Notes: a model not told the origin generated them from the letters alone. Positions 37,959 to 53,568 are shown, counted from the first letter of the stretch. The stretch: DNA of 64,000 bases from Patescibacteria group bacterium (GCA_035291665.1 DATDRP010000001.1:223127-287126), one strand, 5' to 3'. Made by a program: numbers and translations.

Positions 37959-40226
37959 TCAGATTCTTGACCTGAGAAGACTTTTGTACACTTTTACTCC
38001 CCCTTCCGTAAATATAAGATCCTGATTCGGAAGTTCAAACTCTCCCTCAACGATTGTGTAGGTCAATATGGCGTCTGAATTGCCTCTTATCCTTACTTCT
38101 CCTACCTTCACCGGTTCATTCCCTAAATACCAAAGAAGATATTGATAATTTTCAGCAAAATCTCCTCCGAATTGGTCATCTTTTCCCATCCGTTTCAGGT
38201 TATACGGTAAGCTTCCTGCATCTTTGATAATCCCATCGGACAGCTTTTTTTGTAATAAATACGGTACGCTTCCGTTGTCAATATGAGATCCACTCATGAA
38301 AAGCCAATATATCGAAAAAGACCATTTCAGTGATGAGAAAACTGCAAACAATAAAACGGTTATCAATAAGAATCGTATTTTATTGGAAGATAGTTCCAAA
38401 AAAAGTCCGATAATTAAAATAGGTATAAAAAATACAGGCAAATAGTAATGTAGAGGAGGTTTGCCATGAACAAATATTGATAAATAACCCAGTAATAAAA
38501 ATAGATAAAAAAGTTTTATTAATTTTTTATTTCTTGCATTCAAATTCGCTGACCGAAAATAAAAAAAACCGGATATAACTAAAATGAAGATTATCAATCC
38601 GAGTTCCTGGTTTTGAACTGTAAAAATGCTGGCTATGAAGTCATATAAAGACTTAATATTTGAAGATATTACATCTGACGTAGCGTTATTTTTCGGATAA
38701 AAACCCAAAAATCCGGCGATCCTGTATGGAATCCAAAGAAAAATATTTTTTGTCATTTGGAAGCCATTCTTGGCATCGTACACCAAAGAAGGAAGAACCG
38801 GGATCAACATTCCCCACGTAAAATATTTCCAAAATACCTTCGACTTCAAATATCCCAAAACCAAATAACAAAAAAACATTGGCGGAATAAGAATGAGGAC
38901 GCTAAGATGAAAATTCAACATTAGTCCGAATATCAAAAATACAGCGAAGAGGTACTTCTTTTTGGTCAATGATTTCATGAAAAAATGGAAAAACGGGAAA
39001 AATAAAACCAAAACCAGCGAAAAAAACATGCTTGCTTGCGATAGTTGAATGAAGGGGGCGGACACAGAAACTATCAAACTGGTGAGTAGTGCAGAGCCTT
39101 TTGTCATCCATTTCGAAACATATATATAATTCAAAAGAATTACCAAAGACGACATGGATGCCATGAATAAAGCCGGTGTGAACGGATTAAATTTTGAATA
39201 TTTGAAAATCGGAATCATTAGCCAATAATATAAAGGTCCGAATCTCATCCAGGGGTGTGAAGTTTGAGGACCAACCAAAGGAAGAATTCCTCGTACCATA
39301 TAGTTTTTTAATTCAACGTAAACATGTCCCAGCTCACCATGAAGTGTAAAATTTTCTTCCAGCCGGAAAAACCTTAAAAATATTCCTAACGCAAAAACGA
39401 GGAGAAACATTACATCAAATTTTGAGAACCGGCAAAAGCCTTCAACCAAGAGAGCCGGAAGTAGTCCAAAGTATTTCTTGAAATAATAAAAACGGCTGTT
39501 TTGGAATATTTTGTCGGGGGTTTTTGATTCGGAGGAATTTTCCTGATGATATGCAACCGATTCATTAACGACGTGTTCAGAATATCCCAGTTTTTTCAAG
39601 CGTTTACCAAGATCATATTCTTCAAAATATAAAAACATCTTCTCATCGAATCCACCGGCTTCCAAAAATAATTCCTTATTTACCATAACCACAGATCCCT
39701 GAACAGCATCTACTTTTATTCCTCGCGAGCTATTCTGTAAAGGTCTGTAAAATTGTTGCGCAACTTTATTATTCGGAAACACCTTGTTGATAAAACTCAG
39801 TGCAAATATACCCTTGAGAGGGGTAAGTTCTGAATACCCATGGACGGTCGGGGTTTCAAGTTCTTCATCTGAAAAAAGTCTCGGGGCGGCAACGGCCGAT
39901 TTCTTATTTTTCAACATAAAAGCCAGAAGTTTATCTGCATTTTCCCGGTCAATTCTAGCGTCAGGATTAAGAATAAGGACAAATTTTCCATTTGAGTTTT
40001 TTATACCCAAATTGTTCCCTCCCCCATAACCAGTATTTTTTACGTTTCGAATATATTTGATGTCGGGAGATATTTTCCGAAGTCCTTTTTTGAGATTCTT
40101 GGACTTCCCGTTATCAACCACCACAACTTCAACACCCTTCAGGTTGCCAAAATAAGATAGGCATCCAAGAGTTTCCCGATTACTTTTATACGAAACTATA
40201 ACAATTGAATATCCCCTTTGCTTCAT
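37959..40226 (-). CDS. Fusion: N-terminal GT2 domain plus C-terminal ~12-TM GT-C-like membrane domain
   Basis: N-terminus SIVIVSYKS...VVDNGKS...NPDARID (GT2). From residue ~250 a polytopic membrane region with a C-terminal periplasmic domain. 755 aa. Confidence 0.7.
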   Translation of the reverse strand: MKQRGYSIVIVSYKSNRETLGCLSYFGNLKGVEVVVVDNGKSKNLKKGLRKISPDIKYIRNVKNTGYGGGNNLGIKNSNGKFVLILNPDARIDRENADKLLAFMLKNKKSAVAAPRLFSDEELETPTVHGYSELTPLKGIFALSFINKVFPNNKVAQQFYRPLQNSSRGIKVDAVQGSVVMVNKELFLEAGGFDEKMFLYFEEYDLGKRLKKLGYSEHVVNESVAYHQENSSESKTPDKIFQNSRFYYFKKYFGLLPALLVEGFCRFSKFDVMFLLVFALGIFLRFFRLEENFTLHGELGHVYVELKNYMVRGILPLVGPQTSHPWMRFGPLYYWLMIPIFKYSKFNPFTPALFMASMSSLVILLNYIYVSKWMTKGSALLTSLIVSVSAPFIQLSQASMFFSLVLVLFFPFFHFFMKSLTKKKYLFAVFLIFGLMLNFHLSVLILIPPMFFCYLVLGYLKSKVFWKYFTWGMLIPVLPSLVYDAKNGFQMTKNIFLWIPYRIAGFLGFYPKNNATSDVISSNIKSLYDFIASIFTVQNQELGLIIFILVISGFFYFRSANLNARNKKLIKLFYLFLLLGYLSIFVHGKPPLHYYLPVFFIPILIIGLFLELSSNKIRFLLITVLLFAVFSSLKWSFSIYWLFMSGSHIDNGSVPYLLQKKLSDGIIKDAGSLPYNLKRMGKDDQFGGDFAENYQYLLWYLGNEPVKVGEVRIRGNSDAILTYTIVEGEFELPNQDLIFTEGGVKVYKSLLRSRI

Positions 40227-40307: not shown

Positions 40308-42194
40308 TTAATTGTGCGCTATTACATGTCCATTTACTGAAGTGGTTGGTATAACAGTCATCAATGCACCAGGTTGATTGTCATAAACTATATTATTGTT
40401 ATCCGTATCTCTGATCTGGATACGTATACCACCCCCATCAATACCGATTACGAAGAAAGTGTAATTACCCAAACCGTTAATTGTACCTGTTCCGGTAAGA
40501 GTTGCCATGTTGTTTGATATAACCAATGAAGAAAGAGTCGTTGCATTGAATTCCAAGTTTGCTGCTGGAAAGGTCATGGTAAATTGTCGGTTTTCTACAG
40601 GTATTGTACCTTGATATTTATAAGCCAAACCGAATCTGACTATCCCAGTAAGATTTTGGTCTTGCGGATAGGCACCGGAGGGTGAGCTATAATTCTGACC
40701 TGCGGTGAAGAGACCTTGGCTGGTAGGATTAAAAACAGACACAAATTGATAGGTTGATGAATTGCTAGTACTCGCGCTGTCAGTAACTGTAAGTACAACT
40801 GTATAAACCCCCGCAGAAGAATATGTGTGAGTATCAGTAATTGTACCAAATCCGTTTTCTTCTGTAACAGTCCCGTTTGTTGAAATACCATCTCCCCAAT
40901 CCCATACGGCAGTATGATCATCACCTGCGTTTGAGTCAGAGAAATATGTTGAGGCGACCATCTCTGTATTTACTTGAATAGGATTTGAAAACACATTGAT
41001 TGACCCGACACTTGGTGCTACATTTTTAAAAAGATATCCCATGCTGAAATCCTCATAAACTGTCTGAGCAGTGTGACCACCCCTCCTAAGTCCTCCAAAA
41101 CCAACTTCAGTAAGTGATGTATCAGTAGCATATATAACTTGAGATCCATCAACGTACCCTCTAATTTGATTCCCATTGACTTCAATCCGTAAAGTATGGA
41201 ATATATCAGAGGACAGGGGCAGGAGTTCGCCATCAAGTGCTGACCAAGCGCCATTTATTTTTTTATACAAATGAACTTGATCCTTCCCGATTTGGAGTAG
41301 ATAGAAGTTATTAACATCAACAAATCGTGCTAGAACTGCAGTGAAGTCATTAGTATTACTTTTTGTATCTACTTGAACATAATAATCTGCTAATTTTGGT
41401 GTAATACTATTATGGATAATGGATTCATCTTGAGTTTGAGAAGGAATCACTAATTGATTGGAATTTATAGCCCAATCACTACTATCCTCCACCCAACCGT
41501 TGCCCAAATCCGTCGAATCAGGATCGTCAAAACCATCACTAAAAAAACTATTAGAGGGGATAGGCGTGGGTGTTGGTGCGGGAGTAGATAATTCTCCAAC
41601 TTCGTAGTTATTGAAATTGAGTACACCTATTTCACCACCCCGTCTAAGACCTCCATATCCAGAGTTCGTAATTGAGCCGTCATTTGCACTAGCTACTAAA
41701 ACATTATCAATAAATCCACTAATTTGACTCCCAACAACTTCAATTCTGTAGGAATTAAAAGTGTTTGCTTGACGATCAAAAGGTCCACTGTAAAGAATAG
41801 TCCAACCTCCGTTAACTCTTTTCCATAATTGAGCAAACCCTTTTCCCGATTGGAATAAATAAAAATTGTTCGTATCGGTAAAACGAGCTAAAACCGCAAT
41901 AAAATCTACTTTTTCACTTGCAGATTCGTCAACTTGAACATAATAATCTGGAGATGAAGGAGTATTCGTATTGTGAACAATAGCTTCAACCTGAACTGGC
42001 GGAACAAGAATATTATTATTTATTGTCCAATCTCCCAAATCTTCCACCCATCCATCTCCCAAAATTGACGTATCGGCGCGATCAAAGTTATCGCTAACAA
42101 TAATTGCAGCAGAAATAGATTCTGCAGAAAATAATCCAAGAATACTAATAAACGAGAGAATTACTAAATCTTTAAAGAAGATTTTTATGTTCAT
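40308..42194 (-). CDS. Secreted protein: 2x LamG/DUF1080-like repeats, a PKD domain and a conserved C-terminal module
   Basis: Signal peptide. Repeated SD(N/G)FD..D...LG(D/N)GWVED..DW.IN.N.LV domains. PKD signature WDWGDG..HTY..GVYTVVLTVTD. The C-terminal ~150 aa are homologous to the C-terminus of 47683..49887. Confidence 0.6.
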   Translation of the reverse strand: MNIKIFFKDLVILSFISILGLFSAESISAAIIVSDNFDRADTSILGDGWVEDLGDWTINNNILVPPVQVEAIVHNTNTPSSPDYYVQVDESASEKVDFIAVLARFTDTNNFYLFQSGKGFAQLWKRVNGGWTILYSGPFDRQANTFNSYRIEVVGSQISGFIDNVLVASANDGSITNSGYGGLRRGGEIGVLNFNNYEVGELSTPAPTPTPIPSNSFFSDGFDDPDSTDLGNGWVEDSSDWAINSNQLVIPSQTQDESIIHNSITPKLADYYVQVDTKSNTNDFTAVLARFVDVNNFYLLQIGKDQVHLYKKINGAWSALDGELLPLSSDIFHTLRIEVNGNQIRGYVDGSQVIYATDTSLTEVGFGGLRRGGHTAQTVYEDFSMGYLFKNVAPSVGSINVFSNPIQVNTEMVASTYFSDSNAGDDHTAVWDWGDGISTNGTVTEENGFGTITDTHTYSSAGVYTVVLTVTDSASTSNSSTYQFVSVFNPTSQGLFTAGQNYSSPSGAYPQDQNLTGIVRFGLAYKYQGTIPVENRQFTMTFPAANLEFNATTLSSLVISNNMATLTGTGTINGLGNYTFFVIGIDGGGIRIQIRDTDNNNIVYDNQPGALMTVIPTTSVNGHVIAHN

Positions 42195-42287
42195 TAAATA
42201 TTATTAAAAGTAGTACAATTAATATACTATATTTATAACTTGTCGATAGACTTGTCAAGAAGTATAGAAAACCCAACTAAGTATATT

Positions 42288-43415
42288 TTATTCTAAAACT
42301 AATTTATCAAAATACCTCTCCAAATTAATAATATATTTTTCCCAAGTAAAATGTTGTTCAACATGTTTTCCAGCCATATCACCCAATGTATCTCTAACTT
42401 TTAAATTGGAAAATAAGAACTCTATTTTTGATGCTAATGCTTTTGGTGATCTCGGTAACAAAAATCCAGTTTTTTTATCTAAAATAGTTTCTTTATATCC
42501 ACCTTCAGAAACTGCGATTACAGGAGTAGAACAAGCCATGGCTTCCAGCGCAGTTAATCCAAAAGGTTCATTTCTCGAAAGACACAACAGACATAAAGCG
42601 TTAGAATATATTTTTGCCAAATCCTTATCACTTTCTATTATTTTTTGCCCCCGATCAAAACCCAATTCAATCCAACTTAATTTTTTCGAGTCTTTCAGCA
42701 AACTCTTAACCTTTAAATACGTATCGTATCCCTTCTCCATATTTCTTTTACCAATATAAAGAACGTATTTATTATTATTATTCTCAGAATTTTTGAAAAT
42801 ATCAGTATCCGCACCCAGATGAATAACTGTCGCACTTTTTTTGTAGAAAGTTTTAACCTGGTTTGCTATATATTTTGAACTCGTAATTATCTTCTGGGCA
42901 GATCTCGCGTTTACCAAATCAACATTTTTTCGTAATTTTCTGGTCAAATATTCATATAATTTTTTATGTAATGGTAAATTCATATCAATTTTCAAATAGT
43001 CTTCATATGCAATACGAAGCAGTTCATGACAATGATAAACATTTTTTGTTTTAAGGTATCGCAAAATAAATGGAGATTCTGTCCAACGATCTGAGTGAAC
43101 TAAAACTAAATCATATCTCTTTTCATCAATATCTCTTGCAATTCTTTTGTGAACCTTTCTCAAACTTATAAAATTCATAAAATCTACGGTTACTCTTTTT
43201 TTAAAACCATGTTTCTCATCAGGAACATTAAAAGCATATATATAAATTTTATTTAAAAAGCTCTTCATATCCTTATAATTAATGTTATTAAAACAATACA
43301 TATCGAGTTTATGATTTTCAGATAACCCTTTCACTTGTTCGTATACAGTTCTCATTGCTCCCCCATCTGGCAAATTTTGAAATATCGCAATTTTCATATC
43401 TACTTTATAGCCCAA
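42288..43415 (-). CDS. Glycosyltransferase family 4 (GT-B)
   Basis: EPFGLTALEAMACSTPVIAVSEGG (E-x7-E). 375 aa. Confidence 0.8.
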   Translation of the reverse strand: MGYKVDMKIAIFQNLPDGGAMRTVYEQVKGLSENHKLDMYCFNNINYKDMKSFLNKIYIYAFNVPDEKHGFKKRVTVDFMNFISLRKVHKRIARDIDEKRYDLVLVHSDRWTESPFILRYLKTKNVYHCHELLRIAYEDYLKIDMNLPLHKKLYEYLTRKLRKNVDLVNARSAQKIITSSKYIANQVKTFYKKSATVIHLGADTDIFKNSENNNNKYVLYIGKRNMEKGYDTYLKVKSLLKDSKKLSWIELGFDRGQKIIESDKDLAKIYSNALCLLCLSRNEPFGLTALEAMACSTPVIAVSEGGYKETILDKKTGFLLPRSPKALASKIEFLFSNLKVRDTLGDMAGKHVEQHFTWEKYIINLERYFDKLVLE

Positions 43416-44224
43416 ATAAAAAGCCAGTTTCCTGGTGAATCGTATGATTTCTTATAAACATGCAATAATGTTTCATAAATGAAAGTGGATATCAATTTTT
43501 TAGGAAACAACTTCCCATAGGGTGAATCTTTAAGATATGACCACAGTTCTCTTTTATAAACTCTTAAAGTTGTCATCCTGAATAAAATCCACCACGTTCG
43601 CATCCAATCATCAGGGTCGTAAGTCTTTGTATAAACTTTCGAAAAACCAACATCTTTCAATATCTTCACCCAATCGTCTTCACTCTTATAGTGATAATGA
43701 TTTACTCGTTTGTTATATCTTTTTAATTTGTCTTCCTTTAAATCCAATTTAAACATCGTTTTCAGAAAACGATCATTTGTGGTTGTTAATATAAACGATC
43801 CACCCTTTTTCAGTACTCGAGATGCTTCTTTGACAGATTCCAAATCATTTTTTATATGTTCGAATGTGCTGTTACTGACTATAGTAGAAAAATACTCGTC
43901 TTCAAAAGGTATTTTATCGGCCGATGTCAGAATTGTTTTTTTATATAAACCGGATTTTCTGGCTAATTTGATCAATCTTCTGTCATTGTCCAAGGCTACA
44001 TCAATATTTTTACCTTCAAATAAATACCTATCCATTCGTCCATCAGAACAGCCAATGTTAAGGGTAGGTTTCACAAATTTAATATTTTTCCAAATTGCTA
44101 TTTCAGGGGCTCTTAAAAAAGCATCACAAGGAGCAAACCAAAAATTTACAAGTAACGAAAATAAATAATCGGATTTTAAATTTTTTTTCTTAAATATTTC
44201 AGCAAGCTTTTTTGAGTATTGCAT
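43400..44224 (-). CDS. Class I SAM-dependent methyltransferase
   Basis: LNIGCSDG (motif I) and VLKKGGSFILTT (motif III). 274 aa. Confidence 0.7.
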   Translation of the reverse strand: MQYSKKLAEIFKKKNLKSDYLFSLLVNFWFAPCDAFLRAPEIAIWKNIKFVKPTLNIGCSDGRMDRYLFEGKNIDVALDNDRRLIKLARKSGLYKKTILTSADKIPFEDEYFSTIVSNSTFEHIKNDLESVKEASRVLKKGGSFILTTTNDRFLKTMFKLDLKEDKLKRYNKRVNHYHYKSEDDWVKILKDVGFSKVYTKTYDPDDWMRTWWILFRMTTLRVYKRELWSYLKDSPYGKLFPKKLISTFIYETLLHVYKKSYDSPGNWLFIWAIK

Positions 44225-45038
44225 AAAAATCGTTTCCCCAAAATACGTTAAAAGGAAAATATTTACTTAATGGTGACAAATATAACATAAAATTATAAAC
44301 AGCATCTTTCCAAGATAACACCGTGTTATTTACAGTTACATTCGTTGAATGAATTTTGCCTTTAAAATTGGTTTGTTTGAATAAATTCCATAGTGAAATA
44401 TAATCAGGCTCATTGATATGCATTATCTTATGGTAATGAGTTCTAAACAATTTCGGATGAATTAATCTGGGATATTCCTTATTGAAGACAAATTTGTATA
44501 CAACAGATATAAATAAACTCACAGGATAACACCAATACTTGTATATATAGATATTAAACCATTTATTGGGTGCAGTATGAATAAATAACAATCCATCTTT
44601 TTTCAACAAGTTATTAATTTTCCCGAATACGACGATTTGCTCATCTGGATATAAATGTTCCAATACTTCCGTCATAACGACAAGGTCATATTTTTGGATT
44701 GTTTTTAACTTTTTAATATCTAAGTGCTTGAAAGCGACTCTTCGTTGTACACTTTTTGGCCATCTTCTTTTCGCATCAACAGCCAGTTTAATAGCATCTT
44801 CAGAATAATCGATTCCTAAAACTTTGCCTCCAGTAAGTTTCGACATCCACAAAGCGAGTTCACCTCTTCCACAACCGATATCCAAAATTCTCTGATCTAC
44901 TTTCAAAGGAATTAAATCAAGTATTTTTTTCAGACGTACATCAATTACTTTACCAAAAGTTTTTCCAAATATTTCATACCCCGACGCATCATTAAGGTAA
45001 TATTCTTTTGTATAAAGATTGGGTTCGACTCTTTTCAT
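44199..45038 (-). CDS. Class I SAM-dependent methyltransferase
   Basis: ILDIGCGRGELAL, VLGIDYSEDAI, LLKKDGLLFIHT. 279 aa. Confidence 0.75.
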   Translation of the reverse strand: MKRVEPNLYTKEYYLNDASGYEIFGKTFGKVIDVRLKKILDLIPLKVDQRILDIGCGRGELALWMSKLTGGKVLGIDYSEDAIKLAVDAKRRWPKSVQRRVAFKHLDIKKLKTIQKYDLVVMTEVLEHLYPDEQIVVFGKINNLLKKDGLLFIHTAPNKWFNIYIYKYWCYPVSLFISVVYKFVFNKEYPRLIHPKLFRTHYHKIMHINEPDYISLWNLFKQTNFKGKIHSTNVTVNNTVLSWKDAVYNFMLYLSPLSKYFPFNVFWGNDFYAILKKAC

Positions 45039-46258
45039 TAAGATCTGAAAATCCTAAATATATTAAAAATGTTTAATAGAAGTGAAGCCACTGTTCCAAG
45101 CAAAACTGAATACACTGTTCCGTTTAATCCATAATTAATAGTTAGCGGATAAATTGTACTCGCCATTACAAATAATGCCGTAAAAGTGTAAAGAGTTACA
45201 TATTTTTGAAGTTTCAAAGAGTGGAATAAGGGATTACACGCGATAACAATTGATCTTAATACTCCAAATACAGCCAACGATTTCAGTATTGGAATTACAC
45301 CATACCACATGTCTCCAAGTAAAATCTTTACAATCATTTCAGGAAAAAAGTAGATTATTAATCCAACCGGAAATATTAACATTATTGTTACAATTAAAGT
45401 TTTTGAAAAGGCTTTCAATAACCTATTACGATCTTCAGATATTTTTACAAATATGGGAAAAGATACCGTATTCATTACATTTGTTACTTCAGTCAAAGGA
45501 AGTGTGGATATTTTATAAGCAACCTGATAAATTCCCAAACTGCTTTTTTCCATCAACTTTCCGACTAATGCATCATCACCATCCGTAAATAAAAAGTTAA
45601 ATATGGAACTGAGGGTAACCCATTTACCTCGATTAGTTATACTTTTGAGATTATACTTATTAAAACTTAATGTCGGTTTGAGCGACAGCATTAAAAAAGA
45701 CAATACAACTTCCGTAATGGCTCCGAATATTAGTCCGTAAACTAAACTGATTGGGTTTTTCAGTATGATCGTAAAAAACAGTGTGAATGTTAAGTCCACT
45801 ATTAAAACAATCGAACTGATAATAAATTCACCTTTAAACTTTAAATCTTTTATGAGAGTCGATCTTGCTGGATTAATAAATCCACGTATTAATGCAACCA
45901 GAGCAATTAGTCTTATTAAGATTACCGATTCTTCTGAGTTGAAAAAGGTTGAAACAAGCGAGGCGGATAAAAAAATTATAAAAAAGATTAAAACGCCTCG
46001 TAAAATTGAAATTAACCATGCTGTGTCAATATATTTTTCTAAATTTTCTTTCTCCTGAATAATAACTACTCCTATTCCTGTTTCCGTTATTGTCTCCAAA
46101 AAGGATAGCGTCAAAGTTGCAATTCCCAAAACACCAAACTGAAACGGAGTAAGTAATCTTGCTAAAATAATAATTCTCAAAAAAGCAAGTATTCTACTAA
46201 AAAGCCGGAAACTACCCATCCAACCAATTCCCGCTAACCCTGTTTTTGTGTATCCCAT
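45038..46258 (-). CDS. Wzx-type polysaccharide flippase (MOP superfamily)
   Basis: 12-14 transmembrane helices with the polysaccharide-biosynthesis-protein N/C pattern. 406 aa. Confidence 0.7.
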   Translation of the reverse strand: MGYTKTGLAGIGWMGSFRLFSRILAFLRIIILARLLTPFQFGVLGIATLTLSFLETITETGIGVVIIQEKENLEKYIDTAWLISILRGVLIFFIIFLSASLVSTFFNSEESVILIRLIALVALIRGFINPARSTLIKDLKFKGEFIISSIVLIVDLTFTLFFTIILKNPISLVYGLIFGAITEVVLSFLMLSLKPTLSFNKYNLKSITNRGKWVTLSSIFNFLFTDGDDALVGKLMEKSSLGIYQVAYKISTLPLTEVTNVMNTVSFPIFVKISEDRNRLLKAFSKTLIVTIMLIFPVGLIIYFFPEMIVKILLGDMWYGVIPILKSLAVFGVLRSIVIACNPLFHSLKLQKYVTLYTFTALFVMASTIYPLTINYGLNGTVYSVLLGTVASLLLNIFNIFRIFRS

Positions 46259-46419
46259 GTTTTTATATTCCTATATAGTTCAATTGTATTATACCCAGAA
46301 TGAAATTACCGTGAATTCAACTATCAAAAAAAATATAAAATATTGACACAATGTAATTTAAAGAGTAAAAAAGGAAGTATGTTATTTAAGAATTACTATA
46401 GTACTTAAATAACGGTATA

Positions 46420-46443
46420 GACCGCTTTTCGGCGGTCTTTTTT
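46420..46443 (+). terminator. Terminator-like hairpin plus T-run inside the 5' leader of the 46506 gene
   Basis: GACCGC-ttttcg-GCGGTC at 46420-46437, followed by TTTTTT at 46438-46443. Confidence 0.4.
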
Positions 46444-46505
46444 ATTGCTTTCGCACTGACGCCACAAAGTGCATAAAGATAGGCGTTAGAAGGAGGTGAT
46501 ATCAA

Positions 46506-46781
46506 ATGAATATTAAAAAGTTCGTAATTAGTGCTTCTACCGCAGCAGTTGCACTTAGTATTATGGCAATTCCAGTATTAGCTGTAGTGCCGGGGGCAGC
46601 AGTCAAAAATGACAATGCTAACCCGAATGCTTGTTGGGGAATGGATAGGGCATTCTATGCTAGTGAGGGATTTTTCCCGGAAAACATGGATATTAAGCAG
46701 TCTTTCCCAGGTAGTGATCTTAGTACTCAACTTCAGGATTGGGTAGCAACATATTGTGTAGCACACGGTCCTGTATTGTAA
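46506..46781 (+). CDS. Small secreted protein (signal peptide), hypothetical
   Basis: Strong SD AGGAGGTGA 7 nt upstream. N-terminal signal KKFVISASTAAVALSIMAIPVLA. 91 aa. Confidence 0.55.
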   Translation: MNIKKFVISASTAAVALSIMAIPVLAVVPGAAVKNDNANPNACWGMDRAFYASEGFFPENMDIKQSFPGSDLSTQLQDWVATYCVAHGPVL

Positions 46782-46808
46782 TAAATGTAGTAAGTATAAA
46801 ATTAAATT

Positions 46809-46840
46809 GCAGGGGAGAGAAAGCAACCCCTGCTTTTTTT
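46809..46840 (+). terminator. Rho-independent terminator
   Basis: GCAGGGG-loop-CCCCTGC stem followed by TTTTTTT, 28 nt after the stop of the 46506 gene. Confidence 0.7.
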
Positions 46841-46856
46841 GAAATCAAGTAGAATT

Positions 46857-47522
46857 TTATTCTGTTGTTATAACTATCGTAGGAGTCACTTTATCAGACA
46901 AATCGCTTTCGATTGGAGGTGTAATTATTAAAGTAGGAATCACTTCGACTTCTTCAGGTAATAGTTCTAAATTCGTAGCCTCTGTTATCAACAATGTTCT
47001 TGTTTCTTCATGATACTTTCCTGTTGCAAAAATACGTCTTCCAATAAATTCACTCAGATCAATATTTTCAGGAACTTCGAGGTTAATAGCTTCTGATGAA
47101 CTTGTAGTTAAATAATAACGATTTGACAAAAACGCTCGACGTAAAATACCAGTAAATGCAGTATTCCGATAACCAGAAGAATCAGATAATGGCTCCTTGA
47201 CTTCTTCAGAAGTATAAACAAAAAACGGTACTTTGAATGGTAATACAAATTTTCCTATACCCAAAGTGACAGTAAGAATTATTATAGAGATTGCGATCGC
47301 TGTTATTGGTCGAACCCTTACCCTCAGATCAATTCCTTCATTACCAACAATTTTAGCCCACCAGCTTTTTATATATGTGATAGGGTTAGTAATTTTTACA
47401 TCAACTAGCGGTGGTTCTTTTTTGCGTAAATCAGGTTTGATTTGTTTAGCTGTTACAACACCCTCCATATAAACCTTTTCAATTTTCTCTTCGAGTTCCT
47501 TTTTTACAACCTTTACAACCAT
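46857..47522 (-). CDS. Membrane-anchored hypothetical protein
   Basis: 221 aa with one central transmembrane helix (AIAISIIILTVTLGI). Confidence 0.4.
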   Translation of the reverse strand: MVVKVVKKELEEKIEKVYMEGVVTAKQIKPDLRKKEPPLVDVKITNPITYIKSWWAKIVGNEGIDLRVRVRPITAIAISIIILTVTLGIGKFVLPFKVPFFVYTSEEVKEPLSDSSGYRNTAFTGILRRAFLSNRYYLTTSSSEAINLEVPENIDLSEFIGRRIFATGKYHEETRTLLITEATNLELLPEEVEVIPTLIITPPIESDLSDKVTPTIVITTE

Positions 47523-47682
47523 TGATTAAATGTAATACGAATATTTTATTGTTGCAATAATAATATCTGAATTGAAAACTGGATTTTAAGCGCTTATTAT
47601 TCCGAAAAAGAAGCCAGATATAAATAAGGCATTTGATATTACGAGATATTACATCTTGTAATTAAAAACTATACGTGATATT

Positions 47683-49887
47683 TTGAGTTACTTAGTTCTA
47701 CGTATGCGGAGTTTTGTCTTGAAGTTAATCAAATCTCTCCTCCTTTTATTTTCATTTTCAATTTTTACAACTCCAACAATTATTAAAGCCCAGGATTTTA
47801 TTTGGCTGCCAACAAGTTTGGTTGGTGCACCAACGCCAAGAAGAGCTTACGGAACAGTTTGGACAGGTTCAGAAATGTTGGTATGGGGAGGATTTCCGGA
47901 AGGATGGGTTTGCTCGTTTAAAACAGGAGGCAGGTACAACCCAATTACAGACACTTGGAGACCGATTTCAACAATTAATGCGCCATCTCCCCGTAGGCAT
48001 TTTCAGGCTGTTTGGTCCGGGACGGAAATGTTGGTATGGACCGGAGCAAATGAATCTTTTTGTCCTGATGGAGCACAATTCCCCGCAGACGGAGGACGCT
48101 ACAATCCTGTCACTGACACTTGGACACCTATTTCAACGGTAAATGCCCCAAGTCCTAGGTGGACAACCGGAGCTGTTTGGACCGGAACGGAAATGATAGT
48201 TTGGGGAGGAAGGGGTTCAACATTGTCAGAACCTTTGTTGAATAGAGGAGCCCGTTATAATCCTATCACTGATACCTGGACTACAATGTCAAACGTTGGA
48301 GCCCCCTCTCCCAGGTCTACGGAATACCAAATGTTCTGGACTGGTAGTGAACTAATTGTATGGGGCGGCGGGCCAAGTTCCTCTCCAGAACCAGACGGAG
48401 CCATTTATAATCCTGCAACTGACTCTTGGAGACCAATGAATTCAGGTGATCCCAATGCGGGCTTTACAAATTATTCAGGCGCTTGGACAGGTTCGGAATT
48501 GGTAACATGGAGCGGATGGAACAAATACAATGTATTGGTACAAACGGGTCAAATTTATAACCCCGTAACAGATACATGGCGGCCAATGACCACTCTTAAT
48601 TCCCCAGCTGCCAGAGGGTTAATACCCACATGGACAGGAACTGAGTTATTTATTTGGGGCGGCGTTGTCGGGGCGAATTGGATGGATAATGGTGGTTTAT
48701 ATAATCCTACAACCGATACCTGGAGACCCACATCGGATCTAAATAACCTCTCTGCCCGCGGAGATACATTTCCGATATGGACCGGAAATGAAGTTATCGT
48801 TTGGGGTGGAGCTCTCACAACATATAATCCTTGGCATGAATATATTTACAATACAGGCGCAAGATTCAAGATCCACTATAACTCACCGCCAACTGTATCA
48901 TCGGGAGGTCCATATTCCGTTAACGAAGGAGACTCAGTTGATCTCACTGCAAATGGATCCGATCCGGATAACGATACATTATCTTACACTTGGGATCTCG
49001 ATAACAACGGCACCTTTGAAACCTCAGGACAAACTGTTTCATTCTCAGCTGTAAATTTGGATGGCCCCGGTATATCAAATGTCGCAGTCAAAGTTACCGA
49101 TGGTGGCGGTCTGACTGCTACAGATCAAACGAGTATCGATATTTTAAATGTTCAACCTACGGTTATCTCAATAAATGCACCACTAGACCCGGTCCTGATT
49201 AATACCGCTATTAACACTAGTGGAACGTTTACGGATCCATCATATTCTGATCTGCATACTGCCATATGGGATTGGGGAGATGGTTTTTCTTCTGAAGGAA
49301 ATGTTGATGAGTTGTATAATTCAGTTGCAGCTTCGCATACTTATCTAACTCCCGGAGTCTATGAAATCAAATTAACAGCAACCGACGACGATTCCGGATC
49401 GGGTAATTTAATTTATCAATATGTTGTAGTATACGATTCCAATGTAAACGGAGGTTTTGTAACTGGTGCAGGAACTATCATTTCCCCGCTCGGAGCTTAT
49501 ACTTCCGATTATTCAATGACCGGTATTGCGAGATTTGGATTTATATCAAAATACCAACCGGGCGCATCATCCCCGACCGGAACTACTCAGTTTCGATTCC
49601 AGACAGCGAAATTTGATTTTGCAAGTAAAGATTATCAATGGTTGGTTGTTGCAGGAGCTCAAGCAAAATTTAAGGGTACCGGAACAGTTAATGGTTCCGG
49701 CAATTATGGTTTTCAGATTTCAGCAACGGATGGTTTGATACAGGGTGGTGGCGATATCGATAAATTCAGAATAAAAATATGGGATCTGAACAACAATAAT
49801 TTTGTTGTATACGATAACCAATTAGGATCAAACGACAATACAAACCCTACAACTGAACTATTGGGTGGAAATATCGTAATTCACTAA
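47683..49887 (+). CDS. Secreted Kelch-type beta-propeller protein with PKD domains and the shared C-terminal module
   Basis: Signal peptide; the likely start is the internal Met at about 47704. Nine or more repeats of YNP.TDTW(R/T)P...AP.PR......WTG.E...WGG. PKD signature WDWGDG...HTY..GVYEIKLTATD. The C-terminal ~150 aa match 40308..42194. Confidence 0.7.
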   Translation: MSYLVLRMRSFVLKLIKSLLLLFSFSIFTTPTIIKAQDFIWLPTSLVGAPTPRRAYGTVWTGSEMLVWGGFPEGWVCSFKTGGRYNPITDTWRPISTINAPSPRRHFQAVWSGTEMLVWTGANESFCPDGAQFPADGGRYNPVTDTWTPISTVNAPSPRWTTGAVWTGTEMIVWGGRGSTLSEPLLNRGARYNPITDTWTTMSNVGAPSPRSTEYQMFWTGSELIVWGGGPSSSPEPDGAIYNPATDSWRPMNSGDPNAGFTNYSGAWTGSELVTWSGWNKYNVLVQTGQIYNPVTDTWRPMTTLNSPAARGLIPTWTGTELFIWGGVVGANWMDNGGLYNPTTDTWRPTSDLNNLSARGDTFPIWTGNEVIVWGGALTTYNPWHEYIYNTGARFKIHYNSPPTVSSGGPYSVNEGDSVDLTANGSDPDNDTLSYTWDLDNNGTFETSGQTVSFSAVNLDGPGISNVAVKVTDGGGLTATDQTSIDILNVQPTVISINAPLDPVLINTAINTSGTFTDPSYSDLHTAIWDWGDGFSSEGNVDELYNSVAASHTYLTPGVYEIKLTATDDDSGSGNLIYQYVVVYDSNVNGGFVTGAGTIISPLGAYTSDYSMTGIARFGFISKYQPGASSPTGTTQFRFQTAKFDFASKDYQWLVVAGAQAKFKGTGTVNGSGNYGFQISATDGLIQGGGDIDKFRIKIWDLNNNNFVVYDNQLGSNDNTNPTTELLGGNIVIH

Positions 49888-49914
49888 TAATTTAAAAAAT
49901 CAGCTTCCAAAATT

Positions 49915-50871
49915 TTAAACACTTATTATTCCGGAGAAGAAGCCGGCCATAACTGCGATATCCGAAGCAAATTGAAGTCCGATTCCGCAAAGCCCTGCTT
50001 TTGCGTCATGCGTTTCAAAATAAACCTTTCTGAACGCCCAGAAGCAGTAAAAAACAAATAAAAGAACAAATGGAAATTCCAAAACCTGCCAGATAATTGT
50101 TGCAAGAAGCAAATACAAACCAACTATATAACGAAGAAACACCAATGAGACTTTTATATTGTGGGTAGAAAGTTTTTTTACAGGATGCCACCAAATCCCC
50201 GACATGGCATCTCCTTTTGCATATAAATAGATTTTCTTGATGGCTTCAGAAAATGAAGTCGGAAGTTTCCAGTAAACTATTGCGTTTTTTACACGTACAA
50301 TTTTTGCCCCCGTTTTTATTATCTTGTAATTAAAAAGGGTATCCTCTGCCGTATCTTTTATGTCTTCCGGAAATCCGCCGACTTTCTGCCAAAGAGTTTT
50401 TCTGAAAGCTAAAGATCGGGCTGAAGCAACGAAAGAAGAACTGAATTTTGAAGGCGGAATTCCCAAGAATACAGATAGGGCTTTCCGGAAAGAGCTTTTT
50501 CCGCCTATCATTTCGTAAAATCCAGCCACCAAATCCACGCTTGCATCATCGAATGGTTTGGTGATCCTTTTATACCAGTTTTTATCGGCTATGCAGCCAG
50601 CATCGGTCGTAACGATGACATCTCCACCCGATGCGCGAATACCAATATTTCTTGCCTGCGAGCGGGAAGTGTTGAACTCAAAGAGTTTTATGTTTTTGCT
50701 GATCGATTGATACCTTTTTATAATATCAACCGTTTTGTCATCCGATCCCCCATCAACAAATATCATCTCGTAAGGTTTTTCCGTTTGCGTCAGAAGTGAT
50801 TCCAATAGAGCTGCTACAGAAGGTTCTTCGTTTAATACCGTGATCACCAATGAAGCTCTCATTAATGGCAA
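49915..50871 (-). CDS. Glycosyltransferase family 2, membrane-anchored at the C-terminus
   Basis: SLVITVLNEE...FVDGGSDDKT...TDAGC. 318 aa. Confidence 0.8.
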   Translation of the reverse strand: MPLMRASLVITVLNEEPSVAALLESLLTQTEKPYEMIFVDGGSDDKTVDIIKRYQSISKNIKLFEFNTSRSQARNIGIRASGGDVIVTTDAGCIADKNWYKRITKPFDDASVDLVAGFYEMIGGKSSFRKALSVFLGIPPSKFSSSFVASARSLAFRKTLWQKVGGFPEDIKDTAEDTLFNYKIIKTGAKIVRVKNAIVYWKLPTSFSEAIKKIYLYAKGDAMSGIWWHPVKKLSTHNIKVSLVFLRYIVGLYLLLATIIWQVLEFPFVLLFVFYCFWAFRKVYFETHDAKAGLCGIGLQFASDIAVMAGFFSGIISV

Positions 50872-50913: not shown

Positions 50914-53568
50914 TTATTTACTAATCTCTTCCGAATAGGATTTTATAAGTTCAATCAGTCTTGCGTCGCCAAGATCAATTGGTGATATACCAAAATTGTC
51001 ATCCGACGAAAGCGACCAGTTCCACAGCAAGATCCCATCGACTTCTTTTGCTTTTGCCTGTTTCAAAAGTGATTCATACAGTGTGTATCGATCAATTCCC
51101 CCATTATCTTCAGGCTTTTTGGAAAAACCGACTTCTTCGATAAGAAGCGGTATTGATGCTGAATCAGAAAAATTATCCCACCTGGCGACCACCTCATGAT
51201 CAATCAAGGAACGCTCGGATTTTACATTATCAAGATAATAATGCGCTGTCATTACTGAAATTTCTGCTAAATTATCCAGATCATCAATCATCGGACCCGT
51301 TGCATATGGCATAAGTTCATTATCCGTCAGAAAGCCTTCTGACCCGGTAAGAATCAAATGCGACGGGTCGATCGATCTCACAAATTTCGACATCTCATCA
51401 ATCCAGCCGACAACTTTATCGGAAGCGGCTACGCTCGAGCTTCTGGGTTCGTTCATAAGCTCCCATGCAAAGACTACCGGGTCGTCCTTGTAGGCAACGG
51501 CGCTTAACGAATTCGATCTTGTGAGTATCTTAAAAACAAAATTTTTATAGATATTTTTTGATTTTTGAGAATCAAAAAACTTATCTTTATCAATAGCTTC
51601 AACTGATTTGATGCCATCCCATTCCAAATATTTATCAACTCCCCCATAAGCCTCCCAATAATTGGCAAAAACGGGAATAACTTTCATATCCAAACGGTCG
51701 GCAACTGCGAAAATATAGTCAATTGCAGCAAGCCTGTCCTCATTATAAACACCCGGTTCCGGTTGGATAGCGCCTTCAAAACCCTCTCCGAAGATCCAAA
51801 AACGAACAACTTTTATACCGTTGTCCTTCGCAGAGGATAAAGTTGCAGATATATCAGCCGGGGATTTGTATATAAGGTCATATGAATTTACGCCTATGAA
51901 TTTAAATTTTTTATCGTTCAGCCAAAGTTCGCCATTCTTCGCATAGATTGTGTCCCTGGGGTGTTCTTTTCTTTTGTAAATTATTAGGTCGTCAAATTCT
52001 TTGACCTCATCAAAAGTTCGCAAAAACTTTGAGTTGCCGTCTTTGACCAACTTAATATACATCGGATTGTACTCGTTGCCTTTTGGCAGTATGAGCCACG
52101 TTGCATAAATACTCGGATCGATAATTGACGTTTCCCAGTACCTGCCTGTTCCTTCATGGATATATCTTTTCAGGGGGAAACCCATATCAAAGGCTAAGGA
52201 ACTGTTAACCATTGATAACATAATCAGCTCATCATTATTATTCATATTCACTTTTGCCCAATCGGACACAACCCGGGTATTCGAAGCGCTCGAACCGATT
52301 AATCCGTCTTTCAGAGTAATTACGTAATTTTCTTTAATTAACATAATCGGCTGAATGATGATAAGAAGTACCGTGAAATATTTCATAAATTTGCTTTTCG
52401 AAATAAGATATGATATATAAACCGAAATTGCCGGTAACATCATCAAACCGTAGCGGACGTTGAAAATACCCGCGGTAGTCCCCAAGTACGGATCCAGAAC
52501 TAATTCTGGAACATTTATCGTTGAATAACCCTGGTACAAAGAAACAATATTAAAAATCATCGGTGTCATTAAAACTAAAAGCGATAAATTATTTACAAAA
52601 TCTTTCTTTCGTAAATAAATATAAAACCCAAATATCGTAAATAACGTGAAGAAAAAACCGAAATTGTCAACCAATGACCATCCATAAGTTAAAACAGCCA
52701 TAACCAAATCTTTTTTGGCATATAAACCGCCTGCTTTCTCAATTAATTCCTGTTGAGCATGCGCAGAGTATTGACCCAACGCAAAATAAAAAGGGTCTTT
52801 AAAAATAAAAGCATTCCAGACTATCCAAAGGGCAATCCCCAATCCGGAAAGAGTCATAAATAGGGAAAGTTTTCCAATCGTATTAGAAACAAAATTTTTT
52901 AATTCAATAGTTTTAACATTCCCCAAGCGTCTTGACAGGTAGGTTTTGACTTCAATCAGAAATAATATTAATCCCGTAAAAGCAAATTGGAACCAGCCGT
53001 CATATCTTGTTAAAATCGCGAAAAATAAATATAAAGACATTAACAAGATATCGTTTAAATGTTTTTCTTTTTCCCACTTGAGTAAGTGATATGCCGATGC
53101 CAAGGAAAAAAACATTAGGGGAACCTCTGTCATCGGTGTTGTCTGCATATATAGTACATTTAAGTTTGTGGCAAATATCAGAAATCCTAAGAAAGCAATA
53201 ATTTTATTTTTGAAAATATAATTAATCAAACCATAAACATATAAAGAAGCTAAGATATATGCGATCATTGAAAAGACGGCACCGGCTAGCCCTGTTTGCC
53301 AAAGCCAATCATTCCATACCAGCGTCATAGTTAAAACATGCGTCAGAGGAAGCCAAACCGAACCGAGTTGCGCCAAACCGGGTTTTAAATTATCTGTAAC
53401 CAAGCGGGCAATATTCATATGCGCTCTTGCATCGCTATAGGCAAGGATTATGTTGTACTTGAATGAAATAAAAAGAGAAATCAAGCTCAACACGATTGAG
53501 ATAGAAAAAATCAGCTTCCAAGTGGGTTTAAATTTAAATATTTTGAAATCGATTGTTTTACTTTTCAT
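50914..53568 (-). CDS. Fusion: N-terminal polytopic GT-C/ArnT-PMT-like membrane domain plus C-terminal GH5 glycoside hydrolase
   Basis: N-terminal ~480 aa has 10+ transmembrane helices, with the first loop AYSDARAHMNIAR resembling the ArnT/PMT DE-loop. C-terminal GH5: VRFWIFGEG, acid/base ELMNEPR, nucleophile region LLIEEVGFS. 884 aa. Confidence 0.65.
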   Translation of the reverse strand: MKSKTIDFKIFKFKPTWKLIFSISIVLSLISLFISFKYNIILAYSDARAHMNIARLVTDNLKPGLAQLGSVWLPLTHVLTMTLVWNDWLWQTGLAGAVFSMIAYILASLYVYGLINYIFKNKIIAFLGFLIFATNLNVLYMQTTPMTEVPLMFFSLASAYHLLKWEKEKHLNDILLMSLYLFFAILTRYDGWFQFAFTGLILFLIEVKTYLSRRLGNVKTIELKNFVSNTIGKLSLFMTLSGLGIALWIVWNAFIFKDPFYFALGQYSAHAQQELIEKAGGLYAKKDLVMAVLTYGWSLVDNFGFFFTLFTIFGFYIYLRKKDFVNNLSLLVLMTPMIFNIVSLYQGYSTINVPELVLDPYLGTTAGIFNVRYGLMMLPAISVYISYLISKSKFMKYFTVLLIIIQPIMLIKENYVITLKDGLIGSSASNTRVVSDWAKVNMNNNDELIMLSMVNSSLAFDMGFPLKRYIHEGTGRYWETSIIDPSIYATWLILPKGNEYNPMYIKLVKDGNSKFLRTFDEVKEFDDLIIYKRKEHPRDTIYAKNGELWLNDKKFKFIGVNSYDLIYKSPADISATLSSAKDNGIKVVRFWIFGEGFEGAIQPEPGVYNEDRLAAIDYIFAVADRLDMKVIPVFANYWEAYGGVDKYLEWDGIKSVEAIDKDKFFDSQKSKNIYKNFVFKILTRSNSLSAVAYKDDPVVFAWELMNEPRSSSVAASDKVVGWIDEMSKFVRSIDPSHLILTGSEGFLTDNELMPYATGPMIDDLDNLAEISVMTAHYYLDNVKSERSLIDHEVVARWDNFSDSASIPLLIEEVGFSKKPEDNGGIDRYTLYESLLKQAKAKEVDGILLWNWSLSSDDNFGISPIDLGDARLIELIKSYSEEISK

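What the first reader, a model, noticed from the sequence alone, without database searches (positions are those of the whole stretch)
40308..49887. Two large secreted proteins embedded in the glycan locus share a PKD domain plus a novel ~150-aa C-terminal module
The proteins at 40308..42194 (LamG/DUF1080-like x2) and 47683..49887 (Kelch beta-propeller) differ completely in their N-terminal parts. Their C-terminal ~250 aa align: WDWGDG...HTY..GVY...T(V/A)TD, then (Y/I)YQ(F/Y)V.V(F/Y)...G.FT(A/G)...(P/S).GAY...TGI(V/A)RFG...KYQ, ...GTGT(I/V)NG.GNY.F......GG......I.I.D.(D/N)NN..VYDNQ.G. A shared C-terminal module on otherwise unrelated exoproteins is typical of a sorting, anchoring or secretion-recognition domain, as with T9SS CTDs, LPXTG or PEP-CTERM. 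Sitting between the GT, methyltransferase and flippase genes, these proteins are candidates for the glycosylated surface proteins of this organism. The module does not match any sorting domain I can name.
Basis: seen in the sequence. Interest (0 to 1): 0.65.

Follow-up and report, generated by a model that had tools for sequence, protein, structure and literature searches.

The report
Widespread PKD-plus-beta-barrel C-terminal protein cassette
Two secreted proteins in this candidate-phyla-radiation bacterium end in the same ~250-residue unit, a PKD domain plus a ~150-residue all-beta domain; this unit is widespread in bacteria and archaea, has no known function, and looks like an ordinary extracellular domain rather than a new sorting signal.

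Summary
Proteins A (40308..42194, minus strand) and B (47683..49887, plus strand) have unrelated N-terminal parts. Their last ~250 residues align at 41% identity (E 2e-42).

The shared unit is a PKD domain plus a ~150-residue module. The module has no Pfam match, no PDB sequence match and no significant Foldseek match. AlphaFold2 models it confidently as nine meandering beta strands.

It is not private to these two genes. At least 575 loci in species-representative genomes carry it, across 15 or more bacterial phyla and several archaeal lineages, at about 64% identity. It sits on secreted proteins with very varied N-terminal parts (propellers, LRR, beta-helix, Ig-like). It is a sub-threshold relative of the NCBIfam domain NF041523 (post-COAP-1), which has no known function.

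The sorting-signal reading is not supported:
- In all 11 loci from Bacteroidota and related phyla, a genuine T9SS sorting domain follows the module.
- In Planctomycetes a metzincin-like domain follows it.
- No neighbouring gene co-occurs with it.
- It has no transmembrane or basic tail.
- Close homologues in related bacteria are not in glycan loci.

Most likely it is a single-copy terminal binding or retention domain. That function is inferred, not shown. Interest is moderate to low.

The parts
40308..42194 (-). Protein A gene, 628 aa: signal peptide, two LamG-like/3-keto-disaccharide-hydrolase domains, PKD, C-terminal module
   Evidence: ORF; Pfam hits; N-terminus MNIKIFFKDLVILSFISILGLFSAESISAA reads as a signal peptide (from the sequence, inferred)
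41073..41519 (-). Protein A, second LamG-like (PF06439, 3keto-disac_hyd) domain, aa 226-374. The first copy lies at about aa 35-200 (about 41595..42092)
   Evidence: two stretches, 33.9 bits against a cut-off of 26.8; the internal repeat SDNFDRAD..GDGWVEDLGDWTINNN / SDGFDDPD..GNGWVEDSSDWAINSN is visible
40752..41024 (-). Protein A, PKD domain of the cassette (aa 391-481)
   Evidence: PF18911 37.6 bits; the AlphaFold2 model matches ColG, PrtV and Epp PKD structures at target-normalised TM-score 0.73-0.82
40311..40751 (-). Protein A, C-terminal module (aa 482-628), the divergent CPR-specific 'A-type' subfamily
   Evidence: 55-67% identical cassettes in Levyibacteriota, Woesebacteria and other proteins with different N-terminal parts; same nine-strand layout in the AlphaFold2 model, pLDDT 88.5
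47683..49887 (+). Protein B gene, 734 aa: signal peptide, Kelch propeller, PKD/Big_9-like domain, PKD, C-terminal module
   Evidence: ORF; Pfam hits; the same 734-aa gene is called on public contigs
47827..48813 (+). Protein B, Kelch beta-propeller (aa 49-377)
   Evidence: PF24681 76.3 bits, plus Kelch_1 and Kelch_2
48880..49137 (+). Protein B, first PKD/Big_9-like Ig domain (aa 400-485), not part of the shared cassette
   Evidence: PF22352 and PF17963
49147..49413 (+). Protein B, PKD domain of the cassette (aa 489-577)
   Evidence: PF18911 65.6 bits; aligns with the protein A PKD
49414..49884 (+). Protein B, C-terminal module (aa 578-734), close to the consensus of the whole family
   Evidence: 64% identical to the family consensus; 74% identical to a Roizmanbacteria homologue; NF041523 at 23.7 bits, E 5e-5; AlphaFold2 pLDDT 92.8, nine beta strands

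Best explanation
Both proteins are Sec-exported, multi-domain extracellular proteins. Each ends in one copy of a conserved ~250-residue cassette, made of a particular PKD subtype followed by a ~150-residue, nine-strand, meander all-beta domain. That domain is distantly related to NCBIfam NF041523 (post-COAP-1).

The cassette is a mobile, widely shuffled passenger domain. It is joined to many different ligand-binding N-terminal parts throughout Bacteria and Archaea. It is not a secretion or sortase signal.

Proposed mechanism:
1. The signal peptide directs export (inferred from the sequence).
2. The variable N-terminal part supplies specific binding: the Kelch propeller in B, the two LamG-like lectin-fold domains in A (inferred from the domain families).
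3. The constant PKD-plus-module cassette supplies a common, non-catalytic function at the C-terminal end. This is most likely non-covalent binding or retention, to a widely available cell-surface or matrix ligand or to other copies of itself (inferred; no direct evidence).

A and B are not recent duplicates. B carries the family-wide type of the module and A carries a divergent CPR-specific type. Their position inside the glycan gene cluster is probably incidental.
For: **Homology of the cassette.** 41% identity, E 2e-42.

**Distribution.**
- 476 word-index hits at 55-67% identity.
- At least 575 module-confirmed loci in GTDB species representatives. They span CPR, Chloroflexota, Acidobacteriota, Planctomycetota, Bacteroidota, Gemmatimonadota, Verrucomicrobiota, Nitrospirota, Actinomycetota, Firmicutes, and Methanosarcinaceae, Thermoplasmata, Methanoperedens and Nitrososphaera.
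- Mean archaeal-bacterial identity is 64%, against 65.5% within bacteria.
- 143 of the top 150 cluster representatives carry the whole cassette.

**Architecture.**
- There is one module per protein, never in tandem.
- It lies within 12 residues of the C-terminus in 186 of 212 proteins.
- Crude scoring finds a signal peptide in 78 of 150 representatives.

**Partner domains.** 60 Pfam families occur in 67 proteins, mostly propellers, LRR, beta-helix, cadherin-like and Ig-like domains. Matrixin, VWA and multicopper oxidase also occur.

**Passenger domain, not a signal.**
- 11 of 11 FCB-group loci have a TIGR04183 T9SS CTD above its cut-off after the module.
- Planctomycete versions continue into an HExxHxxGxxH domain.
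- No neighbour family recurs across loci.

**Fold.**
- pLDDT is 92.8 for the module and 88.5 for PKD plus module (pTM 0.73).
- The strand KFRIKIWD alternates hydrophobic and charged residues, which fits a soluble barrel or sheet (read from the sequence).

**Relation to NF041523.** 119 of 121 family members match it at E<=0.01, and P0074 scores 43.8 bits against the 40-bit cut-off.

**Two subtypes.** The protein A cassette is 55-67% identical to other CPR proteins with different N-terminal parts. The protein B module is 74% identical to that of a Roizmanbacteria Kelch protein.
Against: - No experiment, solved structure or paper addresses this domain. The binding or retention role is therefore inference only.
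- A constant module at the extreme C-terminus of 88% of otherwise unrelated exoproteins is also exactly the pattern of a sorting or anchoring domain.
- A ligand common to archaeal, CPR, single-membrane and double-membrane envelopes is hard to name.
- The A-type subfamily has lost several residues that are nearly invariant in the main family (GGGW, K121, W123, D116). This weakens the idea of one shared binding site.
- The 80 loci used for the identity comparison were chosen by exact conserved peptide patterns. This biases them towards conserved members.
Confidence: 0.55

Rival explanations
1. The cassette is a purely structural element. It would act as a stable folding nucleus, a protease-resistant cap or a rigid stalk base at the C-terminal end of long extracellular proteins, with no ligand of its own.
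For: - Conserved positions are dominated by glycines and aromatic residues: 14 nearly invariant Gly, plus Y, F and W. This is typical of tightly curved beta-barrels.
- The A-type subfamily changes many conserved polar residues but keeps the predicted fold.
- In T9SS cargo the module lies directly before the CTD, where spacer Ig-like domains usually lie.
Against: - Spacer or stalk domains such as PKD and Ig normally repeat in tandem and diverge quickly. This module is always single.
- It keeps about 64% identity between archaea and bacteria, which suggests a constraint beyond folding.
- Polar residues R119, D106, Y133-D134-N135 and the terminal His are invariant or nearly so.
Confidence: 0.22
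2. The module would be a C-terminal sorting, covalent-anchoring or secretion-recognition domain, read by a dedicated machine as T9SS CTDs, LPXTG and PEP-CTERM signals are.
For: - It is at the extreme C-terminus in 186 of 212 proteins.
- It is shared by exoproteins with 60 or more different partner domain families.
- Several copies occur per genome: two here, and four or more loci in one Pirellula metagenome-assembled genome.
Against: - It is found unchanged in archaea, CPR, and bacteria with one or two membranes. No known sorting machinery has that range.
- A genuine T9SS CTD follows it in 11 of 11 FCB-group loci.
- It is internal in Planctomycetes.
- It has no transmembrane helix or basic tail, and its last residues form a confident beta strand of the fold.
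- No neighbour family is conserved across 80 loci.
Confidence: 0.08
3. The module is a small enzyme, or a cofactor- or metal-binding domain, whose activity is the common function of these proteins.
For: - Invariant or nearly invariant D106, D116, R119, K121, D134, N135, H157 and Y47.
- Conservation across the two domains of life is unusually high for an extracellular non-enzyme.
- The weak fold neighbours are ligand-binding up-and-down barrels such as nitrophorins, BcnA and avidins.
Against: - There is no significant match to any enzyme family or structure.
- The CPR A-type subfamily, including protein A, has lost K121, W123, D116 and the GGGW motif yet is maintained in many proteins.
- The N-terminal partners are mostly binding scaffolds, not substrates or co-enzymes.
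Confidence: 0.07

Closest known systems
NCBIfam NF041523, post-COAP-1 domain (curated model, no described function)
   Same: It is homologous over model positions 1-98 of 115. The protein B module matches at E 5e-5. 119 of 121 family members match at E<=0.01, and some pass the 40-bit cut-off.
   Different: A and B are below the cut-off (B 23.7 bits, A no hit). Here the domain follows a PKD domain rather than a choice-of-anchor P domain; NF040603 was hit by only 1 of 121 members, weakly. That 'COAP' stands for choice-of-anchor P is my reading of the name and is not documented in any paper found.
T9SS type A C-terminal sorting domain (TIGR04183 / PF18962)
   Same: A constant C-terminal all-beta domain on many unrelated secreted proteins, with several copies per genome.
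   Different: There is no sequence or profile match. The module is about twice as long. It is not restricted to the FCB group, and a genuine T9SS CTD follows it in those lineages.
PKD-containing C-terminal extensions of secreted proteases and collagenases (ColG/ColH PKD plus collagen-binding domain; PrtV and Epp PKD)
   Same: A PKD domain followed by a terminal non-catalytic beta domain that, in those enzymes, mediates substrate binding. The PKD half superposes at target-normalised TM-score 0.73-0.82.
   Different: The terminal module here is not a collagen-binding or PPC domain. It has no Pfam or PDB match.
Calycin-type up-and-down beta-barrels (lipocalins and nitrophorins, BcnA/YceI-like, avidins, NHBA C-terminal barrel)
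   Same: The best, though non-significant, Foldseek neighbours. All are meander barrels of 8-10 antiparallel strands of about the same size.
   Different: TM-scores are only 0.29-0.45 and E is 0.5 or worse. There is no sequence similarity. Membership is not established.
Archaeal 'surface layer' proteins with beta-propeller, PKD and beta-helix domains (Methanosarcina; PDB 1L0Q, Jing et al. 2002, cited from memory)
   Same: The same repertoire of N-terminal partners (propellers, beta-helix, PKD) appears in module-bearing proteins, and Methanosarcinaceae loci carry the module.
   Different: I did not test whether the solved protein carries this module. The solved fragment covers only the propeller and PKD.

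Membership tests
NCBIfam NF041523 post-COAP-1 domain | HMM score at or above the curated cut-off of 40 bits | tested here: not met
   Protein B module 23.7 bits (16.8 in the full-length protein); protein A no hit. Homologues straddle the cut-off: P0074 43.8, P0013 34.1, P0128 33.3 bits.
NCBIfam NF041523 post-COAP-1 domain | Significant homology over most of the model | tested here: met
   Protein B module E 5e-5 over model positions 1-98 of 115. 119 of 121 family members match at E<=0.01, best 7.6e-13. Protein A is linked only transitively, through B and the family.
NCBIfam NF041523 post-COAP-1 domain | Position after a choice-of-anchor P (NF040603) domain, as the name implies | tested here: not met
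   The module is preceded by PKD in A, B and nearly all homologues. NF040603 was hit by 1 of 121 members at E 1e-3.
PKD domain (PF18911 / PF00801), first half of the cassette | Pfam score above the gathering threshold, and the PKD fold | tested here: met
   Protein A 37.6 bits and protein B 65.6 bits against a cut-off of 27. The model superposes on ColG, PrtV and Epp PKD at target-normalised TM-score 0.73-0.82.
   No Pfam hit at E<=10. Foldseek with the module alone returns no Ig or PKD hits. In the two-domain model only the PKD half matches.
T9SS type A sorting domain (TIGR04183 / PF18962) | HMM match at the C-terminus | tested here: not met
   No hit for A or B. Genuine CTDs (25.3-42.4 bits against a cut-off of 23) lie after the module in 11 of 11 FCB-group loci.
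Sortase, exosortase or archaeosortase signals (LPXTG, PEP-CTERM, PGF-CTERM) | Short motif followed by a hydrophobic helix and a basic tail at the extreme C-terminus | tested here: not met
   Protein A ends ...TTSVNGHVIAHN and protein B ends ...ELLGGNIVIH. These residues form the last beta strand of a confident globular model.
Sorting domain with a dedicated machine (generic) | A conserved co-located or co-varying processing or secretion gene | tested here: inconclusive
   No neighbour family recurs across 80 loci with up to 6 kb of flank on each side, beyond generic ABC ATPases in 4 loci. Genome-wide co-variation could not be computed with these tools.
Calycin / lipocalin-like beta-barrel superfamily | Significant structural superposition (TM-score of about 0.5 or more) | tested here: inconclusive

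The most novel reading that the evidence does not exclude
The PKD-plus-barrel cassette is a previously unrecognised, envelope-independent surface-retention or adhesion module with a new fold. It would be spread by horizontal transfer across Bacteria and Archaea. It would tether many different secreted binding proteins to cells or to a matrix, by binding a widely available ligand or by self-association. In function it would resemble dockerin or SLH modules, but it would work in CPR bacteria, archaea, and bacteria with one or two membranes alike.
Probability: 0.2. Interest if true: 0.65.

Novelty: new member of a known kind. Interest (0 to 1): 0.35.

Why it matters
For this window, the result turns a putative new sorting system into two ordinary secreted multi-domain proteins. 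Each carries a common terminal cassette that has not been characterised.

More generally, the cassette is one of the more widespread and best conserved extracellular domains still lacking a Pfam family, a solved structure or a function. It occurs in hundreds of species-representative genomes at least. Identity between archaeal and bacterial copies is about 64%.

If it proves to be a general surface-retention or adhesion unit, it would explain how anchorless exoproteins stay cell-associated in CPR bacteria and archaea. It would also improve the annotation of the many proteins now labelled only 'PKD domain-containing protein'.

Tried and rejected
**Searches that found nothing**
- Pfam on the isolated modules at E<=10: no hit.
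- PDB sequence search with one module and with a module-only profile: nothing significant. There were weak, non-significant matches (E 0.14-1.2) of the 'GNYGF..TA.DG...FRIKIWD.NNN' hairpin to cadherin F-G strands. I treat these as motif resemblance, not homology.
- Foldseek of the module against PDB and the viral BFVD library: no hit with E<=0.001.
- Literature searches for post-COAP-1, choice-of-anchor P, NF041523, and PKD surface proteins in Patescibacteria: nothing relevant.

**Tools unavailable**

**Ideas rejected**
- *Transmembrane beta-barrel*, prompted by OmpA and designed-barrel hits. Strands alternate hydrophobic and charged faces (KFRIKIWD), and the domain occurs in archaea and single-membrane bacteria.
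- *Stand-alone ~170-aa versions of the module*. These start inside the PKD domain and lack signal peptides, so they are most likely truncated gene calls.
- *Conserved-neighbour search for a sortase-like partner*. The only recurrent 'families' were alternative-frame ORFs inside the module's own coding region.
- *Link to the glycan locus*. The homologues in Roizmanbacteria and Gottesmanbacteria lie beside TPR, ABC-transporter, Fic and TspO genes.

**Caveat on counts**
- The counts (26,706 / 12,902 / 6,632 proteins) are upper bounds. The profile included the PKD domain, and 7 of the top 150 hits are multi-PKD proteins without the module.


Full report
**1. The observation**

The two ORFs are present as described: protein A at 40308..42194 on the minus strand (628 aa), and protein B at 47683..49887 on the plus strand (734 aa).

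Pfam gives these domains:
- A has two 3-keto-disaccharide-hydrolase (DUF1080, LamG-like) stretches and one PKD domain (aa 403-481).
- B has a Kelch propeller (aa 49-377), a PKD/Big_9-like domain (aa 400-485) and a PKD domain (aa 505-575).

Both N-termini read as cleavable signal peptides. This is inferred from the sequence.

BLASTP aligns only the C-terminal ~250 residues, at 41% identity and E 2e-42. The last ~150 residues alone still match at 36% identity, E 2e-18, and the window holds no further copy.

The flanking genes are GT2, GT4, two SAM methyltransferases, a Polysacc_synt_3 flippase, a PMT-like/GH5 fusion and multi-glycosyltransferase fusions. The rest of the window carries housekeeping genes: enolase, PPDK, DnaE, GatA/B and PGM.

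**2. What the shared region is**

The first half is a genuine PKD domain. It scores above the Pfam thresholds. The AlphaFold2 model superposes on the ColG, PrtV and Epp PKD structures at target-normalised TM-score 0.73-0.82.

The second half, the 'module', has no match in any of these searches:
- Pfam, even at E<=10.
- PDB sequences, by single sequence or by profile.
- Foldseek against PDB or BFVD, at a significant level.

AlphaFold2 nevertheless models it with high confidence:
- The protein B module alone has pLDDT 92.8 and pTM 0.87.
- Protein A's PKD plus module has pLDDT 88.5 and pTM 0.73.
- Both show nine antiparallel strands in a simple meander.

The weak fold neighbours are all small up-and-down barrels, namely nitrophorins, BcnA, avidins, the NHBA C-terminal barrel and designed barrels. 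Their TM-scores reach only 0.29-0.45. So the module is not a second PKD or Ig sandwich.

Conserved positions are rich in glycines and aromatic residues. A few polar residues are also conserved: Y47, D106, R119, Y133-D134-N135 and the terminal His.

The only named relative is NCBIfam NF041523, 'post-COAP-1 domain':
- The protein B module scores 23.7 bits (E 5e-5) against a 40-bit cut-off. Protein A has no hit.
- 119 of 121 family members match at E<=0.01.
- Typical members straddle the cut-off at 43.8, 34.1 and 33.3 bits.

No paper in the library mentions this domain.

**3. Distribution**

- The word-index search found 476 proteins at 55-67% identity to the protein B module.
- A scan of one genome per GTDB species, using peptide patterns from inside the module and confirmed by tblastn, found at least 575 loci.
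- The best 80 loci span:
  - CPR (Roizmanbacteria at 74% identity, Gottesmanbacteria);
  - other bacteria: Chloroflexota, Acidobacteriota, Planctomycetota, Bacteroidota, Rhodothermales, Ignavibacteria, Gemmatimonadota, Verrucomicrobiota, Nitrospirota, Actinomycetota, Firmicutes, Omnitrophota, KSB1, Binatia and Methylococcaceae;
  - archaea: Methanosarcinaceae, Thermoplasmata, Methanoperedens, Methanobacteriota, Nitrososphaera and Nitrosopumilaceae.
- Among these loci, mean archaeal-bacterial identity (64%) equals identity within bacteria (65.5%) and within archaea (66%). This points to strong constraint, horizontal spread, or both. The sample is biased towards conserved members.
- A profile search of 1.84 billion cluster representatives returned thousands of hits. 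143 of the top 150 carry the complete 250-residue cassette. The raw counts are inflated by multi-PKD proteins.

**4. Architecture**

Among 212 full-length module-bearing proteins:
- The module occurs once per protein, never in tandem.
- It ends within 12 residues of the C-terminus in 186 proteins.

Other features:
- The preceding PKD is a specific conserved subtype (NVAP.VG.I.AP.DPV..GT....A.FTDPG..DTHTA.WDWGDG), so the unit of shuffling is PKD plus module.
- N-terminal partners are extremely diverse: 60 Pfam families in 67 proteins. They include FG-GAP, PD40, NHL and LVIVD propellers, LRR, beta-helix/NosD, cadherin-like, Big_9, He_PIG, DUF11 and fn3. Kelch, SdrD-B-like, VWA, matrixin and multicopper oxidase also occur.
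- About half of the representatives show an obvious signal peptide by a crude hydrophobicity test.

Proteins A and B are not recent paralogues:
- B carries the family-wide consensus type (64% identical to the consensus).
- A carries a divergent type (41% to the consensus). Its closest relatives, at 55-67% identity, are CPR proteins from Levyibacteriota, Woesebacteria and others with different N-terminal parts.

**5. Is it a sorting signal?**

Five results argue that it is not.

- (a) All 11 loci from T9SS-bearing FCB-group lineages carry a TIGR04183 type A sorting domain, above its cut-off, after the module. These lineages are Bacteroidota, Rhodothermales, Ignavibacteria, KSB1 and Eisenbacteria. 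The lineage's own signal is therefore added to the module, which is part of the cargo.
- (b) In Pirellula and other Planctomycetes the module is internal, followed by ~240 residues with an HELGHKLGLEH metzincin motif. In Caldilineaceae a short linker ending (I/V)FLPLVT(R/Q) follows it.
- (c) The domain occurs essentially unchanged across all envelope types and both prokaryotic domains. No known sorting machinery has that range.
- (d) Its last residues (..GGSIVIH) form a confident terminal beta strand of the fold. There is no hydrophobic helix or basic tail.
- (e) No neighbouring protein family recurs across 80 loci.

The glycan-locus context is not conserved either. The Roizmanbacteria Kelch-PKD-module homologue lies beside TPR and ABC-transporter genes, and the Gottesmanbacteria homologue lies beside Fic and TspO genes.

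**6. Most likely mechanism**

*Shown:* the cassette is a conserved, single-copy, usually terminal, globular extracellular domain pair. It is shuffled among secreted proteins that mostly consist of binding scaffolds.

*Inferred:*
- The variable N-terminal part provides specific recognition.
- The constant cassette provides a shared non-catalytic function.
- That function is most plausibly non-covalent binding or retention, to a broadly available surface or matrix component or to itself.

Three features favour a functional terminal unit over a passive spacer: it is always single-copy, it is always terminal or adjacent to the anchor, and it is highly conserved.

The main rival is a purely structural cap or folding nucleus. 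A catalytic or cofactor-binding role and the sorting-signal idea are less likely. The rival entries give the reasons.

**7. Comparison with known systems and novelty**

The module works somewhat like other constant C-terminal modules on variable exoproteins, such as dockerins, SLH or cell-wall-binding modules, PKD plus collagen-binding domain in collagenases, and T9SS CTDs. It is a member of none of them.

Its only family link is to the uncharacterised NCBIfam post-COAP-1 domain, as a sub-threshold relative. For that reason I class the finding as a new member of a known but functionally blank kind. It is not categorically new.

The domain family itself is a worthwhile target. It is very widespread, has no Pfam entry, no solved structure and no significant Foldseek neighbour.

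**8. Verdict**

The sorting-domain interpretation is not supported. The proposed link to glycosylation has no evidence. Interest is 0.35.

Noticed in passing
L005 and L007 (Caldilineaceae), ends of the module-bearing ORFs; also P0235 and P0239: After the module comes a ~25-residue Gly/Ala/Asp-rich linker. The protein then ends in (I/V/L)FLPL(V/L)T(R/Q) or LFLPLLNAD. This may be a lineage-specific C-terminal motif or sorting signal in Chloroflexota. It had no NCBIfam hit.
   Followed up: partly
L011, L023, L024, L026, L028, L072, L074 (Pirellula and other Planctomycetes); P0231, P0256: In Planctomycetes the module is followed by a conserved ~240-residue tail with an HELGHKLG(L/I)EH metzincin-type zinc motif. 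It gives only weak hits to metalloprotease models. This is an uncharacterised peptidase-like domain fused downstream of the cassette.
   Followed up: partly
window 50914..53568 (-): An 884-aa protein fuses an N-terminal multi-pass PMT/GT-C-like glycosyltransferase region (PMT_2, PMT) to a C-terminal GH5 cellulase/mannosidase domain (GH5_mannosidase). This is an unusual synthase-hydrolase fusion within the glycan locus.
   Followed up: no
window 58477..63288 (-) and 37959..40226 (-): A giant 1603-aa fusion of two GT2 domains and one GT4 domain. Separately, a 755-aa GT2 domain fused to a large polytopic membrane region.
   Followed up: no
window 42001..50000: G+C rises sharply from 0.30-0.31 across the GT4, methyltransferase and flippase genes (42-46 kb) to 0.43 across the protein B gene (48-50 kb). 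The window average is about 0.36. This could reflect horizontal acquisition of the protein B gene, or its Gly/Thr/Trp-rich composition.
   Followed up: no
window 46857..47522 (-): A 221-aa ORF with one predicted transmembrane segment and no Pfam hit. It is transcribed divergently from the protein B gene and is also called as a gene on the public contig.
   Followed up: no
window 40752..41024 (-) and 49147..49413 (+); many homologues: The PKD part of the cassette gives sub-threshold hits to NCBIfam NF058578, 'CPR pilus system RbmA-like protein PamR': 28-31 bits here and up to 81.7 bits in P0128, against a cut-off of 300. This probably reflects shared PKD/Ig repeats only.
   Followed up: no
P0271, P0297, P0300 (homologues of the N-terminal part of protein A): The double LamG-like/DUF1080 region of protein A also occurs, at 49-53% identity, fused to alpha/beta-hydrolase (PGAP1 / LCAT / Palm_thioest-like) domains in proteins that lack the cassette. 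So the N-terminal part is shuffled independently as well.
   Followed up: partly
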